Of a DNA stretch of 64,000 nt, positions 4,847 through 19,007 are shown one piece after another; within the stretch, counting starts at the first letter, position 1; each line of letters begins with the position of its first letter. Position numbers and translations under genes: made by a program. A model generated the notes under the pieces. It was not told the origin of the DNA. It saw nothing but the letters and a program-made list of their open reading frames with translations, and did not search any database. Source of the stretch: Alphaproteobacteria bacterium (GTDB lineage Bacteria > Pseudomonadota > Alphaproteobacteria > UBA6615); contig JAJFJA010000046.1 of the NCBI GenBank assembly GCA_021774445.1, positions 48,562 through 112,561 of the forward strand, given 5' to 3'.

Positions 4847-6199
4847 CTATTGCGCGGCGACAGGCTCTTCCGCGGCGGCTTCGCACCGGATCCCCGTGCG
4901 GCGCAGGAATCGCGCCTTATTGGCCGGATCCAGGCGTACCCGCAAATGCACCCGCCCATCCTCGCTGCGCCGGTCGAGGACATCGCCATGCTCATGCAGC
5001 CAGGCCACGCTCGCACCGTCGCTTTCCGGCACGCTAACCTCTATGGCTTCATGCCGCGCCGCCAACAGCCGGTCGATTTCCCGCAACACCTCGTCGCAGC
5101 CATCGCCGGTCAGTGCCGAAATCGCGAACTGATCGGCACTCCGCTTGGTCAGCTCGTTTACCCGGCCTGCCTCGTCCGGCGCCAACCGATCGATCTTGTT
5201 GAGCAACACGATCTGCGCTTGATCCTTGTCATCGCCGACCCCGAGTTCCCCCAGGATCGTGCGCACGTCGGCATCCTGTGCATCGCTGTCGGGATGGGAA
5301 ATATCGCGCACCACGATCACTACATCGGCCGCCAAGACCTCTTCGAGCGTCGCCCGGAATGCCGCGATCAAATCATGCGGCAGATCGGAGATGAACCCCA
5401 CCGTGTCCGAGAGAATAATTTCCTTCCCGGAGGGCAGCACCACCCGCCGCATGGTCGGGTCCAATGTCGCAAACAACAGATCGTCGGCAAACACGTCGGC
5501 CGCGGTCAGTCGGTTGAACAAGGTTGACTTGCCGGCATTCGTGTAACCCACCAAAGCCACGATGGGATACGGTACCCGCTGCCGCGCCGCTCGATGCAGG
5601 CCGCGCGTGCGACGAACCTTACTGAGCTCCGTTTTCAGCCGCGCGATCCGTTCGCTGATGATGCGCCGGTCGATCTCAAGCTGACTCTCGCCCGGCCCAC
5701 CGAGGAAACCATGGCCACCACGCTGCCGCTCCAGATGGGTCCAAGACCGTACCAGGCGGGTCTTCTGATAGCTCAGGGCCGCTAGTTCGACCTGCAGCTT
5801 ACCTTCGTTGGTTTTCGCACGCGCCCCGAAGATTTCCAGGATAAGCCCGGTTCGATCGATAACCTTGCAGTGCCACGCTCGCTCCAGGTTGCGCTGCTGA
5901 ATAGGACTAAGCGCGCCATTGACAACGACAAGTTCGGCGTCCATCGCCTTCACGGTTACGCCGAGCGCTTCGACGGTGCCGGGGCCGAATAGCGTCGCCG
6001 GCCGCACGGCCTGAATGGTTACCGTTTCGGCATGCACCACATCCAGCTGTATCGCTGCGGCCAGACCAATGGCCTCCTGCAATAGCGCCTCGGCGCTTCT
6101 GGCACCGCTGCTGGACTTGCGTACCGCTTGCAGGACGACGGCACGAAGGGCTTCCGGCACCTCCCCCTTGTCTGTCCCTGGCGAAAGATTAGCTATCAC
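4847..6199 (-). CDS. hflX: GTPase HflX
   Basis: HflX N-domain followed by the G-domain motifs [21 protein letters not shown] and NKID. Located immediately downstream of hfq. Confidence 0.9.
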
Positions 6200-6567: not shown

Positions 6568-7461
6568 TCATCCGGCCCGCTCTCCCGTATTCCTCGTTTC
6601 GCTCGTTTCGGACAGGCTCCGAACGTACCCGATATAGGCATCGTATAGCCTACGCGTTACCGGTCCTGGCCGCCCATCGCCGATCGTTCCTCCATCAATT
6701 TTCAGCACCGGCAGAACGGCGGACGAACTGCTCGACAGAAAGGCCTCACTTGCCATGCGCACCTCGTCTATCGTAAACGCCCGCTCCTCCACACGCACGC
6801 CCATATCGGCAGCCAGCCGTAGAATCGTCGCCCGTGTGACCCCGCCCAGGATTTCGCTGCCGATACCGCGCGTGACCAACTGCCCTTGCTCGCCCACAAG
6901 CCAAGCGTTGGAGGATGCTCCCTCGGTAACCGCACCGTCACGGTCCAGCAGCCACGCCTCATACGCCCCCGCCTCTGCCGCCGCCTGCTTGGCCAGTACA
7001 TTGGCGATCAGGGACACCGATTTAATGTCCGCCCGTCCCCACCGTATGTCGTCGAGGCTGATCACCGATACGCCCTTTTGGAACCGCGCCTCCGACCACA
7101 ACCCGTTGCAGCGCGCCGTCATCACCAGTGCCGGTTCGATTACCAGGGGAAACTTGTGATCGCGCCGCGCGACCCCCCGCGTCACCTGGAGGTAGAGTAG
7201 CCCGTCGCGCACCCGATTGCGCCGCAACAGCTCTCGCATGACCAACTGCAGTGCTGCGCGGCTCATCGGCCGGACGATGCGTAGCTCCCGTAGCGAACGG
7301 TCGAGGCGGTCCAGATGTGCCTCGCCATCAATCAGCGCACCACGATGGACCACCACGACCTCATAGACGCCGTCGGCGAACTGATAGCCGCGATCTTCCA
7401 CATGCACCATCGCATTGCGGTGCCGAACGTAACGGCCATTCACATAGGCGATTCGCGACAT
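6568..7461 (-). CDS. dat: Class IV aminotransferase (D-amino-acid / branched-chain aminotransferase family)
   Basis: 297 aa with fold-type IV patterns (...DRGYQFADGVYEV..., ...GVTR...). It sits between trkA and hfq, as does the gene annotated dat in rhizobia. Confidence 0.75.
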   Translation of the reverse strand: MSRIAYVNGRYVRHRNAMVHVEDRGYQFADGVYEVVVVHRGALIDGEAHLDRLDRSLRELRIVRPMSRAALQLVMRELLRRNRVRDGLLYLQVTRGVARRDHKFPLVIEPALVMTARCNGLWSEARFQKGVSVISLDDIRWGRADIKSVSLIANVLAKQAAAEAGAYEAWLLDRDGAVTEGASSNAWLVGEQGQLVTRGIGSEILGGVTRATILRLAADMGVRVEERAFTIDEVRMASEAFLSSSSSAVLPVLKIDGGTIGDGRPGPVTRRLYDAYIGYVRSLSETSETRNTGERAG

Positions 7462-16328: not shown

Positions 16329-16584
16329 ATTTTGGTCAGCCCCAAAACCGTGACTAAGAATTAGGCAGAATACGGGATAACCCCGAACCCCGCAAACCCA
16401 ATCCAGGCCCGCGCCGGCCTTGTCGCCGCGTGACACCGCCCGGCAATTCCACTATCGACGTAGTCTCAAATAGTATTACTTAAGATTGTCAGACTACTGC
16501 TCTAAAGTGTTGTATGACAACTACGAAAGAACTATTTTGTTACCCAACACCCCTACGGGTTTGCCAGTATTCAGGAGGAAACGC

Positions 16585-16878
16585 ATGGCCCGCCCAACCC
16601 TCGGCACCGGTGCATCCCGGTCAAAGCTCACGGATGTGGTCGGCAACGGCCGCACCAATAACGTCCCCGACGTCTTGTGGCTCAAGAACGCCCTGCACGC
16701 CCTCGGCCGCTACAACGACCCCTTGGGCGAACGCCATGGCTTTATCGACCAGAAGCTCGACGACGCCATCACCAACTACCAGCGCGACAGCGGCCTCAAG
16801 AGCGACGGCTTTCTAAAACCCATGGGTGAGACCGAAAAGACCATCCGCGTCGAACTCATCCGTCTCGGCGAGGAGTGA
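16585..16878 (+). CDS. Small peptidoglycan-binding-domain (PG_binding_1-like) protein, first gene of the toxin-like cassette
   Basis: An AGGAGG sequence lies 5 nt upstream of the ATG at 16585. The pattern VLWLKNALHALGRY...LDDAITNYQRDSGLKSDGFLKPMGET fits the PG_binding_1 helical repeat. No signal peptide is evident. Confidence 0.65.
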   Translation: MARPTLGTGASRSKLTDVVGNGRTNNVPDVLWLKNALHALGRYNDPLGERHGFIDQKLDDAITNYQRDSGLKSDGFLKPMGETEKTIRVELIRLGEE

Positions 16879-16881
16879 GGC

Positions 16882-17596
16882 ATGAGCATCGCAACATCTG
16901 AAGGCCTACGTCGACTGGCGCAACTCCCGATTGTCGCCCGAACCTTTTTCGGCTCCGCCGAAAGGGCCTTCCGCGCCCTCGGGCTCGAGGATGCGGCGGC
17001 TAATTTGCGCCATTACCGCGGCGCCACAGGCAAGGAAAAGACCTTTTCCGACGAACAAATCGCCCGCCACCTCCCGATCATTGAGGCCGAGGACGAAAAT
17101 CGAACCCGTTTCGCAACAAAGACATTCGTCGGCCGAACAAAAAAACCGACCAAAGGTCAACAACCGCCTCCGCGGCCTCCAGGATGGTCAAACGTACTCG
17201 TTCGACGACCATTTCAATCGCGGATTCGAATATCGCGGCGCCATTGTGAGCAAGCCTGCCGCAAGCCTGTCATCGGGCCTCGGCCTACCGACCTACAAGG
17301 CGTTCGGCAACGGTGAAGTCATCTCGGTCGCCGACCTTACCGCGACCCGTATTGGCAAATTCCTTAACATAGCCGGCACGGTCCACCACGGCTTTGATAC
17401 GGATCGAGGGGACAACCTGTACAACTTCGATCCTGAACAGCCCGGTCACCTGGCCGGCAGAGCGCTCGAGCGCGAGGGCGAAGCAAAACCTTTTCGCATG
17501 CAGTTCGACCGCAAACAATCGGTCGACGCCGTGCTTGAATACGGGCCCGACCGAACGCTCACCCTCAGGAAAATCGACTGGGGCAAGATCGAGTGA
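16882..17596 (+). pseudogene. Toxin-like protein of unknown family, split by a 1-nt frameshift in an A7 run (about 237 aa if repaired)
   Basis: ORF 16882-17316 and ORF 16931-17596 are colinear halves. Removing one A from the run at 17139-17145 joins ...KTFVGRTK to NRPKVNNRLRGLQDGQTYSFDD... Its last 73 aa are paralogous to the C-terminus of ORF 18145-18519. Confidence 0.6.
17139..17145 (+). repeat. A7 homopolymer at the frameshift point of the toxin-like gene
   Basis: Read directly from the sequence: ggccgaac-aaaaaaa-ccgacc. The upstream frame has phase 1 and the downstream frame has phase 2. Confidence 0.9.
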
Positions 17597-18117
17597 CTAA
17601 GGCCGCAAAGAGGCGCCTTCGCGCCCTCGCCTACGTCGTCTCGGGCGGCGCAGCGCTGTTCCTCTTCCTCGCGACGGTTCCGGTGGTCCCGTATCATCCC
17701 GTGTGCGGCGGTTACTACGAGAACCGGACTGTCCTCAAAGGTCCCCTCCGCCCCATATACCAAACGTGGCTAGAGAAGATCATGACGGAAAGCGGTTTCA
17801 ATTACTGGAAACTCGGCGACCAGATTTTCATTCGTTACATCAACATCTTCGATGGACCTGACATCCTCGATCGAGAAGATCTCCACGACAACATCGAGTG
17901 GGGATTGATCTTAAGCATGGCGCAAGGATACACCGCGACACAAAGCGATATGCCGCCGCCACCGCCCTTGCTGGATGCTATCCGCGCCACGGACCACATC
18001 TATGGCCCGTTTGATCCCGACAGCTCAACGGGTTCATTCCGCCGTTTCGAAGATTGCGAGGTCAAACGCGCCGGCACCATCTGGGTCGAGAAGCTTGACG
18101 CCGCAGGTCAACCATAA
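17593..18117 (+). CDS. Membrane-anchored immunity-like protein 1 (unknown family)
   Basis: Its GTG start overlaps the upstream stop (GTGA). It has a basic N-terminus and one TM helix (LAYVVSGGAALFLFLATVPVV), followed by a domain of about 140 aa with two Cys and a PPPPP motif. Paralog of ORF 18516-19007. Confidence 0.65.
   Translation: MTKAAKRRLRALAYVVSGGAALFLFLATVPVVPYHPVCGGYYENRTVLKGPLRPIYQTWLEKIMTESGFNYWKLGDQIFIRYINIFDGPDILDREDLHDNIEWGLILSMAQGYTATQSDMPPPPPLLDAIRATDHIYGPFDPDSSTGSFRRFEDCEVKRAGTIWVEKLDAAGQP
17683..17835 (+). repeat. 153-bp direct repeat, copy 1 (inside immunity-like gene 1)
   Basis: Aligns without gaps to 18145-18297 at a constant offset of 462 bp, with 7 mismatches by hand alignment. 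Confidence 0.9.
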
Positions 18118-18144
18118 TGGCACGCCCGTGGCGCCATCCCCGCC

Positions 18145-18297
18145 GTGGTCCCGTATCATCCCGTGTGCGGCAGCGACTACGAGAACCGGACTGTCCTCAA
18201 AGGTCCCCTCCGCCCCATATACCAAACGTGGCTCGAAAAGGTCATGACGGAAAGCGGTTTCAATTACTGGAAACTCGGCGATCAGATTTTCATTCGT
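18145..18297 (+). repeat. 153-bp direct repeat, copy 2 (5' part of the chimeric orphan ORF)
   Basis: See copy 1. It encodes VVPYHPVCGSDYENRTVLKGPLRPIYQTWLEKVMTESGFNYWKLGDQIFIR, i.e. residues 31-81 of immunity-like protein 1. Confidence 0.9.
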
Positions 18298-18519
18298 GGC
18301 CGCGTAAGGCATGGCTTCGATGAAGATCTGGATGACAACGTCTTTGATTTCAATCCTGGGCAGATTGGACGCAACCATGCTCGTGTTTTGGAAGCCGCTG
18401 GTGAGGCCAAGGCGTTTGGGATGCAGTTCGATCGGCAGCAGTCCGTTGACGCTGAGGTGATCCGCGATAGGAACGGAAGACTTACCCTCAAGCGAGTTAC
18501 ATGGGGTGACATCGAGTGA
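18145..18519 (+). CDS. Chimeric orphan ORF: immunity-gene fragment fused to a second toxin C-terminal module
   Basis: The first 51 codons duplicate part of the immunity-like gene. The last 73 codons (18298-18516) align without gaps to the last 73 aa of the toxin-like gene, with 38/73 identical by hand. I see no Shine-Dalgarno sequence before the GTG at 18145, so independent translation is doubtful. Confidence 0.45.
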   Translation: MVPYHPVCGSDYENRTVLKGPLRPIYQTWLEKVMTESGFNYWKLGDQIFIRGRVRHGFDEDLDDNVFDFNPGQIGRNHARVLEAAGEAKAFGMQFDRQQSVDAEVIRDRNGRLTLKRVTWGDIE

Positions 18520-19007
18520 CCCGAGGAAAAACGGCGGCGTTTGGGCTGGGGTTGTGCGTTCTTGTGGGCTTCATGCTCTTCACCGTCGTGCCCCTCACAC
18601 GATACCGGCCCAACTGCGGCAGCATTGAAACCCCAATCTACCTCGATGGTCCGCTTCGGCCGGATTACCGCGACAACCTCGAACACGTTTTGAACGAAGA
18701 GGGGTTCTACTACTGGAAGCTGAACGGGAACATCTACCTGAAGACAATGGACGTCGTCACTGGTCTTGATTTTTATCACGAGCTGTTCCGCAACGCGGAA
18801 GCGGATATTATCTCGAACTTATCCCACGGCTACAGGGCAAACGGTGAACGAATTCCACCACCACCGCCCTTACTGGACGCCATTCGCCGGACCGAGGCCG
18901 AATACGGTCCTTTTCCCGCGGCCATAGTCGGCTCCGATTCGCGTCACTTTCGTGACTGCGACGTCATGCGCGCCGGCGCCATCTGGGTCGAGAAGCTGGA
19001 CGGTTAG
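18516..19007 (+). CDS. Membrane-anchored immunity-like protein 2 (diverged paralog of 17593-18117)
   Basis: It has the same GTGA stop/start overlap with the preceding toxin-CT module and a TM helix (FGLGLCVLVGFMLFTVVPL). Shared motifs are GPLRPxY, GFxYWKL, PPPPPLLDAIRxT, YGPF and FxDCxVxRAGxIWVEKLD. Confidence 0.65.
   Translation: MTRGKTAAFGLGLCVLVGFMLFTVVPLTRYRPNCGSIETPIYLDGPLRPDYRDNLEHVLNEEGFYYWKLNGNIYLKTMDVVTGLDFYHELFRNAEADIISNLSHGYRANGERIPPPPPLLDAIRRTEAEYGPFPAAIVGSDSRHFRDCDVMRAGAIWVEKLDG

What the first reader, a model, noticed from the sequence alone, without database searches (positions are those of the whole stretch)
17683..18297. Recent 153-bp duplication of the immunity-like gene fused to an older, diverged toxin C-terminal module
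Segment 17683-17835 (codons 31-81 of immunity-like gene 1) reappears at 18145-18297. The offset is a constant 462 bp, with 7 mismatches and no indels. At 18297/18298 the similarity switches abruptly. From there the reading frame continues into a module only about half identical (protein level) to the C-terminus of the toxin-like gene. Near-identical DNA is thus joined to old, diverged DNA in one ORF. This marks a recombination junction of the kind left when an incoming CT/immunity cassette displaces a resident one. The direct repeats could also mediate deletion of the 462-bp unit.
Basis: seen in the sequence. Interest (0 to 1): 0.65.

Follow-up and report, generated by a model that had tools for sequence, protein, structure and literature searches.

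The report
Recombination scar in toxin-like gene array
A 153-base copy of a membrane "immunity-like" gene really is spliced onto the tail of a second, diverged "toxin-like" gene; it looks like the scar of a rearrangement that reduced a two-module gene array to one module plus an orphan, in a rare and uncharacterised gene family.

Summary
Bases 17683-17835 recur at 18145-18297: 153 nt, 7 mismatches, no indel, offset 462, blastn E 3.6e-66, with sharp edges on both sides. The frame then runs into the last 73 codons of a second toxin-like gene that is 52% identical to tox1.

The locus is a small island of PG_binding_1 ORF, ~230-aa "tox" domain and membrane-anchored "imm" modules. The family is rare: 266 representatives among 1.84 billion proteins. 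It has no Pfam, PDB, PHROG or PADLOC match, and both folds lack structural neighbours.

Relatives at the same chromosomal site carry tandem arrays. One has two 5'-truncated tox genes, each followed by an intact imm gene. So the orphan-module reading holds.

The "incoming cassette" story is not specifically supported. The 27-nt spacer before the copy begins with 10 of the first 11 bases of a PG-binding gene. That points to a former complete second module that lost about 0.77 kb, with the imm1 copy as filler at the junction.

The chimera is unique to this genome and has no ribosome-binding site. Toxin and immunity function is inferred only, and type VI secretion is unlikely as the delivery route.

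The parts
16585..16878 (+). Small ORF (97 aa) with a PG_binding_1 domain; first gene of module 1
   Evidence: Pfam PF01471, E 2.7e-7. The domain is fused N-terminally to the tox domain in 14 of 20 long relatives tested.
16882..17596 (+). tox1, a ~237-codon member of an uncharacterised domain family; split by a +1 frameshift at the A7 run 17139-17145
   Evidence: ORFs 16882..17316 and ..17596 lie in different frames. HMM hits 1-90 and 86-225 of 226 positions. Family profile: 266 hits at E<=1e-3 in 1.84e9 representatives.
17593..18117 (+). imm1 (174 aa): N-terminal membrane helix plus a ~140-aa domain with conserved Cys38/Cys155 and a PP motif; its start overlaps the tox1 stop (GTGA)
   Evidence: AF2 model pLDDT 86.3, helix 3-28. 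Family alignment A9. imm HMM 3-170/171.
17683..17835 (+). Repeat copy 1 (imm1 codons 31-81)
18117..18144 (+). Spacer. It begins ATGGCACGCCC, overlapping the imm1 stop (TAATG), and is the probable 5' stub of a lost second PG-binding gene
   Evidence: 10/11 identity to the PG gene start at 16585-16595. Such matches occur about 3.9 times per 128 kb by chance, so about 1e-3 are expected in the spacer; this test was post hoc.
18145..18297 (+). Repeat copy 2 (imm1-derived filler, 95.4% identical to copy 1)
   Evidence: imm HMM positions 29-79
18298..18519 (+). tox2-CT: the last 73 codons of a second tox gene (HMM positions ~153-225), 52% identical to tox1; its stop overlaps the imm2 start
   Evidence: It retains the family motifs HGFD, FDFNPGQ, GEAK.F, LTL and WG.
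18145..18519 (+). Chimeric ORF (124 aa): GTG start, no Shine-Dalgarno sequence, same frame as imm1 and separated from it by TAA plus 9 codons
   Evidence: Singleton protein P0002.
18516..19007 (+). imm2 (163 aa): intact paralogue of imm1 (46% aa identity), i.e. an orphan immunity-like gene
   Evidence: It keeps all invariant columns of the family.

Best explanation
The 153-bp repeat is a real rearrangement scar inside a small accessory island (16.44-19.0 kb, between dusB and a cytochrome-c-assembly-family membrane gene). The island holds modules of three genes: a PG_binding_1 ORF, a ~230-aa 'tox' domain protein and a membrane-anchored 'imm' protein. The locus most likely once held two complete modules in tandem (PG1-tox1-imm1-PG2-tox2-imm2).

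About 0.77 kb was then lost, covering PG2 after its first few codons and the first ~150 codons of tox2. A copy of imm1 codons 31-81, taken from 462 bp upstream, was left at the joint. This happened either in one template-switching event or as a partial tandem duplication followed by a microhomology-mediated deletion (inferred). The 3' joint lies where imm1 (..GDQIFIR) happens to resemble the tox motif G[DN]xLxIxG, so a short microhomology (about TCATTCG) is likely (inferred).

The product is an orphan module: a toxin-like remnant that cannot be made in full, followed by an intact imm2. The chimeric ORF is probably not a functional gene. With tox1 also frameshifted, the locus keeps two intact imm genes and no intact tox gene.

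The modules behave like effector-immunity pairs acting on the cell envelope, but that function is inferred from gene arrangement only.
For: Repeat and sharp edges.

Spacer starts with 10/11 of the PG gene start, placed exactly at the imm1 stop.

Two full modules in tandem occur at the same dusB site in relatives L021/L022, and G001 also has a second PG gene after imm.

Orphan modules (5'-truncated tox plus full imm) occur in L019, whose neighbouring membrane gene is 79% identical to the window's, so it is the same locus. One truncation there lies only 5-9 codons from the window's.

imm copy number varies (1 or 2) beside an identical tox in L015/L016/L018.

The tox motif at the joint, and the G001 tox DNA ATCATTCGCGG against the chimera's TTCATTCGTGG.

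The chimera is unique and has no start context or promoter-like site.

PG_binding_1 is fused to tox in many relatives.

The tox-imm gene pair is conserved with overlapping stop and start at four or more different chromosomal sites.

imm has an N-terminal membrane helix and a conserved Cys pair.
Against: No same-species genome was available, so the ancestral form was not seen.

The PG2-stub argument rests on 11 bases and was found post hoc.

The 4.6% divergence between the copies could also mean the fragment came from another strain's allele.

Against the toxin/immunity label: neither protein has any known homologue or structural neighbour. Tox and the PG-binding ORF have no signal peptide. Only 1 of the 13 other carrier genomes tested has the T6SS sheath gene tssC. 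A distant PG_binding-tox fusion (L026) and the holC-linked copies in G000 and G001 have no imm gene beside them.

Reads could not be checked.
Confidence: 0.6

Rival explanations
1. First reader's model. A horizontally acquired tox1-imm1 cassette recombined upstream by homology (PG gene or tox N-terminus) and downstream by illegitimate joining inside the resident tox2. This is homology-facilitated illegitimate recombination, and it pushed tox2-CT-imm2 downstream as an orphan. The imm fragment came in with the donor DNA, for example from a donor with duplicated imm genes.
For: This model was proposed for T6SS effector-immunity arrays (PMC5361080, read) and for Rhs orphans (PMC3967940, listed). 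Donors with two tandem imm genes exist (L015/L016). The 4.6% divergence resembles an allelic difference between strains. The N-terminal 86 residues of tox are somewhat more conserved (58-66%) than the rest (44-53%), which could serve as an anchor.
Against: It does not explain why the fragment starts at codon 31, nor why a PG-gene start precedes it. There is no sharp boundary between a constant and a variable part in the tox family. No near-identical tox or PG segment marks an upstream crossover. GC content does not distinguish the two modules (0.54-0.59).
Confidence: 0.2
2. The chimera is a working gene. The imm-derived beta-hairpin replaces the equivalent hairpin of tox and yields a small protein with a role of its own, or its translation is kept to couple expression of imm2.
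For: Both joints are in frame, and the ORF is intact with all C-terminal family motifs. The tox HMM aligns from position 134, which is inside the imm-derived part. The fragment ends exactly at the end of a hairpin in the imm1 model (E71-74, E77-81). Its stop overlaps the imm2 start. In L019 a 75-codon tox-CT has an ATG overlapping the preceding imm stop.
Against: It is unique to this genome. It has a GTG start with no ribosome-binding site and no promoter-like site. It lacks the family's most conserved residues upstream of the joint (S137, and R145 at 99%). Being in frame at one joint has a 1-in-3 chance. At 4.6% divergence an intact ORF is expected anyway.
Confidence: 0.07
3. Assembly artefact: two strain variants or mis-joined reads were chained through the shared segment.
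For: The genome is a draft of 81 contigs. The copies differ by an allele-like 4.6%.
Against: The seven mismatches make the two copies distinct paths. The longest shared perfect block is 58 nt. Both flanks of copy 2 are unique sequence and must exist in reads. No alternative contig carries the region. The contig is 191 kb. Similar arrays occur in independent assemblies.
Confidence: 0.05
4. Functional rival, independent of the junction. The modules are not toxin-immunity pairs but a cell-wall-acting enzyme (or lysis protein) with a membrane-anchored partner or regulator. The array is then simply decaying paralogues.
For: PG_binding_1 is typical of cell-wall hydrolases and endolysins; the only PHROG hit is to the PG-binding part of endolysins. 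There is no secretion signal and no link to T6SS. Some tox homologues stand without imm. Disruptions are frequent.
Against: Tandem diversified modules, 5'-truncated tox with intact imm, variable imm copy number and patchy distribution (13 of 401 genomes of the class) are the pattern of conflict systems rather than housekeeping enzymes. The copies that lack imm have also lost the FDFNPGQ motif.
Confidence: 0.3

Closest known systems
Orphan toxin-CT/immunity modules of Rhs and CDI loci (e.g. Salmonella Rhs orphans, PMC3967940)
   Same: A full toxin-immunity pair is followed by a 5'-truncated toxin gene with an intact immunity gene. Arrays differ between relatives at one locus.
   Different: Rhs and CdiA orphans keep a stretch of the conserved core upstream of a defined motif, and that stretch lets them recombine with the main gene. 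Here the near-identical stretch comes from the immunity-like gene, not the toxin. The tox protein is a single 220-aa domain with no constant/variable boundary. No delivery apparatus is linked.
T6SS effector-immunity arrays formed by sequential displacement in Vibrio cholerae (PMC5361080)
   Same: Old immunity genes are retained downstream of a newer pair, and illegitimate joints are invoked.
   Different: Those arrays sit at the 3' end of T6SS clusters. This island lies between dusB and a membrane gene, the genome's tssC is on another contig, and 12 of 13 other carriers lack tssC. The evidence here favours loss within a two-module array rather than insertion.
Templated (filler) insertions at deletion joints from replication template switching or microhomology-mediated repair (general knowledge, not tested here)
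   Same: A short copy of nearby sequence (153 nt, from 462 bp upstream) sits exactly between two breakpoints, with probable microhomology at one joint.
   Different: The copies have since diverged by 4.6%. The mechanism cannot be shown from one genome.
PG_binding_1-containing cell-wall hydrolases and phage endolysins
   Same: A PG_binding_1 domain lies N-terminal to, or just upstream of, a second domain. There is no signal peptide, as in endolysins.
   Different: The second domain matches no known catalytic family or fold. The partner is a 170-aa anchored protein, not a recognisable holin or spanin.

Membership tests
Polymorphic toxin-immunity systems with orphan modules (Rhs/CDI type) | The toxin gene is immediately followed by a small cognate immunity gene | tested here: met
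   tox and imm are adjacent with overlapping stop and start in the window (twice) and in L012, L013, L015, L018, L019, L022, L023, L024 and L025. This is gene arrangement only; cognate protection was not tested.
Polymorphic toxin-immunity systems with orphan modules (Rhs/CDI type) | A conserved N-terminal delivery region joined to a hypervariable C-terminal toxin at a defined motif | tested here: not met
   One domain is conserved over all 226 profile positions. There is only a mild gradient: 58-66% identity in the N-terminal part against 44-53% in the C-terminal part.
Polymorphic toxin-immunity systems with orphan modules (Rhs/CDI type) | Downstream orphan modules: a 5'-truncated toxin plus an intact immunity gene | tested here: met
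   Window: tox HMM ~153-225 plus imm2. L019: tox 118-224 plus imm, and tox 144-226 plus imm.
Polymorphic toxin-immunity systems with orphan modules (Rhs/CDI type) | The orphan keeps a segment homologous to the main toxin gene that allows recombination with it | tested here: not met
   tox1 and tox2-CT are 57% identical at nucleotide level, with no long identical block. The only near-identical segment is imm-derived.
Polymorphic toxin-immunity systems with orphan modules (Rhs/CDI type) | Toxicity of the toxin and specific neutralisation by the immunity protein | not testable with these tools
T6SS effector-immunity arrays | Linked to, or dependent on, a type VI secretion system | tested here: not met
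   tssC (PF05943) is present in the window's genome but on contig C7. It is absent from 12 of 13 other genomes that carry the tox family.
PG_binding_1 cell-wall hydrolases / endolysins | A PG_binding_1 domain | tested here: met
   PF01471, E 2.7e-7, for 16585-16875. The domain is fused to tox in relatives.
PG_binding_1 cell-wall hydrolases / endolysins | A recognisable catalytic (hydrolase) domain | tested here: not met
   No Pfam, NCBIfam, PHROG or PDB sequence hit. Foldseek best E is 0.26 against PDB and 0.007 (TM 0.11) against BFVD, using a model with pLDDT 88.6.

The most novel reading that the evidence does not exclude
The island belongs to an undescribed, mostly alphaproteobacterial effector-immunity family: a PG-binding module, a tox domain with a new fold and an anchored periplasmic imm protein with a new fold. 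Its delivery would not depend on type VI secretion. It would diversify as tandem module arrays that decay by template-switch deletions, and this junction, where immunity-gene sequence is grafted in frame onto a toxin tail, would be the first visible trace of that process. A stronger version is that such grafts are used, because the imm hairpin structurally mimics the tox hairpin it replaces.
Probability: 0.15. Interest if true: 0.7.

Novelty: new variant of a known kind. Interest (0 to 1): 0.42.

Why it matters
Orphan toxin/immunity modules are well known. Here the junction shows how one was made: the filler comes from the immunity-like gene, and a stub of the lost upstream gene remains. This occurs in a gene family nobody has described. 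If the family is an effector-immunity system, the locus is a 'disarmed but immune' state, with two intact imm genes and no intact tox gene. It also gives two natural imm variants for testing specificity. The wider value lies in the family itself: two confident models without structural neighbours, a recurrent PG_binding_1 fusion and no known delivery route.

Tried and rejected
1. Spacer 18118-18144 as a copy of the DNA after imm2 (the 3' end of the neighbouring membrane gene): local alignment score 18, no better than matches to unrelated loci at 21-27. Rejected.

2. Short tox-CT proteins P0053 and P0070 as independent orphans with the same 5' boundary: their loci show longer tox homology upstream, so they are gene-caller artefacts. 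Rejected. Only L019 toxC-CT has a nearby boundary.

3. The 88%-identical 49-nt 3' ends of imm1 and imm2 as a recombination substrate: the same protein motif (DCxVxRAGxIWxEKLD) occurs in all imm genes, with 62-94% nucleotide identity. Protein constraint is sufficient. Left open.

4. Gene conversion from imm1 into an older fragment: there is no imm homology beyond either edge. Unlikely.

5. Type VI delivery. Unlikely.

6. Phage lysis cassette or GTA endolysin-holin: only the PG-binding domain matches phage families. The GTA lysis locus was read about in PMC5026251, with no sequence link. Not supported.

7. Defence system: no PADLOC hit.

8. Searches that found nothing: the word-based search with imm1 found only the window's own proteins. 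Two JGI metagenome scans found nothing. The species-representative scan found only the genus mate.

Full report
OBSERVATION

The repeat is exactly as described. Bases 17683-17835 and 18145-18297 match over 153 nt with 7 mismatches, no indel and an offset of 462. A blastn self-comparison gives E = 3.6e-66. The only other repeat inside the island is a 49-nt stretch at 88% at the 3' ends of the two imm genes.

Identity falls to background within one or two bases at both edges. The copy covers codons 31-81 of gene 17593-18117, and three of the 51 residues differ. After 18297 the same frame reads 73 codons that are 52% identical to the end of tox1. Elsewhere the two modules are only 55-57% identical in DNA.

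The perfect blocks within the repeat are 27, 58, 40 and 15 nt long. No other contig of the assembly carries this DNA.

ANATOMY OF THE ISLAND

The island spans 16441-19007. Its GC content is 0.573, against 0.61-0.62 in the flanks. It lies between dusB (minus strand) and a 270-aa Cytochrom_C_asm-family membrane gene (minus strand). On the plus strand it holds:
- a 97-aa PG_binding_1 ORF (Pfam E 2.7e-7);
- tox1 (16882-17596), split by a +1 frameshift at an A7 run at 17139-17145;
- imm1, whose start overlaps the tox1 stop;
- a 27-nt spacer;
- the chimeric ORF 18145-18519;
- imm2, whose start overlaps the chimera's stop.

The chimera has a GTG start and no Shine-Dalgarno sequence. It lies in the same frame as imm1, behind its TAA. 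No promoter-like site was found in the island.

WHAT THE GENES ARE

Tox and imm match nothing in Pfam, NCBIfam, PADLOC, PHROGs or PDB sequences.

A profile of tox found 266 representatives at E<=1e-3 (133 at <=1e-10) among 1.84 billion. It is one domain, conserved over its whole length. The best-conserved positions are R145 (99%), W222 (100%), S137 and D170 (89%) and H158 (83%).

In 14 of 20 longer relatives examined, a PG_binding_1 domain is fused N-terminally to it. The upstream ORF and tox are therefore one functional unit.

AlphaFold models are confident: tox has pLDDT 88.6 and pTM 0.81, and imm1 has 86.3 and 0.80 with a membrane helix at residues 3-28. Neither has a structural neighbour in the PDB, and tox has none in BFVD; no hit reaches E<=1e-3 and TM-scores stay at or below 0.25.

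The family is patchy: 13 of 401 genomes sampled from the class carry it.

COMPARATIVE LOCI

The trio sits at different chromosomal sites in different lineages:
- dusB in the window and in L021/L022;
- ABC-F/EamA-holC in L013;
- ilvD/rplM in L015-L018;
- other sites in L020 and L023.

Three points bear on the finding.

(i) L021/L022, at the same dusB site, have two complete modules in tandem (PG-tox-imm-PG-tox-imm...). The genus mate G001 also has a second PG gene after imm.

(ii) L019 has a neighbouring membrane gene 79% identical to the window's, so it is the same locus in a related organism. It reads tox-imm-tox[118-224]-imm-tox[144-226]-imm. These are orphan modules with 5'-truncated tox and intact imm. 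Its second truncation lies 5-9 codons from the window's. Its immB is the closest relative of imm1 (57-59%) and carries the same GDQIFIRYINIFDG.

(iii) Beside one identical tox protein, L015/L016 have two tandem imm genes (84% identical) and L018 has one.

No other locus shows an imm fragment fused to tox. The chimera protein is a singleton in the 5.8-billion-cluster collection.

THE JOINTS

3' joint. The tox family has the motif R.G[DN].L.I.G.V.HGFD at the breakpoint. The imm1 sequence ..LGDQIFIR resembles it, so the chimera reads GDQIFIRGRVRHGFD and fits the tox consensus. The genus mate's tox has ATCATTCGCGG where the chimera has TTCATTCGTGG. A microhomology of about seven bases is therefore plausible; this is an inference.

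5' joint. The spacer begins ATGGCACGCCC, overlapping the imm1 stop as TAATG. This is 10/11 identical to the start of the PG gene (ATGGCCCGCCC, encoding MARP). Matches of that quality are expected 3.9 times in the whole window on both strands, so about 1e-3 in the spacer. The test was post hoc.

I read the spacer as the stub of a second PG gene. By comparison with module 1 (from the PG start to the equivalent tox position, about 16600 to 17372), roughly 0.77 kb is missing between the stub and tox2-CT.

MOST LIKELY HISTORY (INFERRED)

A two-module array lost PG2 and the first two-thirds of tox2. The imm1 copy filled the joint. There are two possible routes: template switching in one event, or a partial tandem duplication (unit 17683-18144) followed by a deletion from imm1' codon 82 into tox2.

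Gene conversion is unlikely because no imm homology extends beyond either edge.

It remains possible. However, it does not explain the PG stub or why the fragment starts at codon 31.

The 4.6% divergence is split about evenly between the two copies when polarised with a distant outgroup. It does not decide between the models.

FUNCTION

The following fit an effector-immunity system acting on the cell envelope:
- gene coupling and diversified tandem modules;
- orphan imm genes and variable imm copy number;
- the PG-binding partner;
- an anchored, Cys-pair-bearing imm domain, probably periplasmic by the positive-inside rule.

The following argue for caution:
- there is no signal peptide on tox or the PG-binding ORF;
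- no known fold matches either protein;
- only 1 of 13 other carriers has tssC, although the window's own genome has it on another contig;
- some homologues stand without imm. These are the distant fusion in L026 and the holC-linked PG-tox-like copies in G001 and in the window's own genome (contig C52), which have also lost the FDFNPGQ motif.

I put the effector-immunity reading at about 0.6 and a non-conflict envelope function at about 0.3.

CONSEQUENCES

If the frameshift in tox1 is real, the locus has two intact imm genes and no intact tox gene. Recombination between the repeats would fuse imm1(1-81) to tox2-CT and destroy imm1. The 58- and 40-nt perfect blocks make this possible at low frequency. 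That judgement rests on general knowledge of RecA substrate length and was not tested.

VERDICT

This is a new variant of a known kind of scar, the orphan toxin/immunity module, in an undescribed family. The junction itself is of moderate interest. The family deserves more attention than the junction.

Noticed in passing
window 17139-17145; L021/L022 ~6790-6800; L020 ~5270-5390: Three independent disruptions of tox genes fall within a few codons of the same spot (profile position ~86, the loop between the N-terminal helical part and the beta-rich part). They are the A7 +1 frameshift in the window, a one-base insertion creating TAA in the second module of L021/L022, and an IS (Transposase_mut) insertion in Siccirubricoccus sp. 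G192. Many metagenomic hits are N-only (ending at 77-87) or C-only (starting at 79-94). This could be a hotspot, phase variation or slippage; it is unresolved.
   Followed up: partly
own genome G000:C52:182846-183726 (L041 3841-4727, minus strand): The same genome has a second, distant PG-binding plus tox-like pair (205 aa) next to EamA-holC-pepA. It has no imm gene, and the FDFNPGQ motif is missing. It is syntenic with G001 L011, and with the full trio at that site in L013.
   Followed up: partly
L015/L016 6735-7702 versus L018 2128-2622; L017 has an N gap there: Freshwater metagenome contigs with an identical tox protein carry either two tandem imm genes (84% identical) or one. So imm copy number varies between close strains.
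   Followed up: partly
window 18052-18100 and 18954-19002: The last 16 codons of imm1 and imm2 are 88% identical in DNA, against about 55% for the rest of the genes. The motif DCxVxRAGxIWxEKLD is shared by all close imm genes.
   Followed up: partly
window 16876-16884, 18115-18145; L022 6268-6300: Successive genes are often in one frame and separated only by a stop codon: PG-TGA-GGC-tox1; imm1-TAA-9 codons-chimera; and in L022 imm-TGA-PG2, where PG2 has no in-frame start. This may be chance or a hint of read-through; it was not tested.
   Followed up: no
L026 3595-4998: A 467-aa PG_binding_1-tox fusion (26% identical to the genus mate's tox) is followed by a convergent Rieske oxygenase gene, and there is no imm gene. 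The distant fused branch may work differently.
   Followed up: no
tox model med130c6757e4; imm1 model m8a0800b6b65a: Both proteins give confident AlphaFold models (pLDDT 86-89) with no Foldseek neighbour in the PDB at E<=1e-3, so both are possibly new folds. The weak top hits for tox include beta-pore-forming toxins but are not significant (TM 0.1-0.25).
   Followed up: yes
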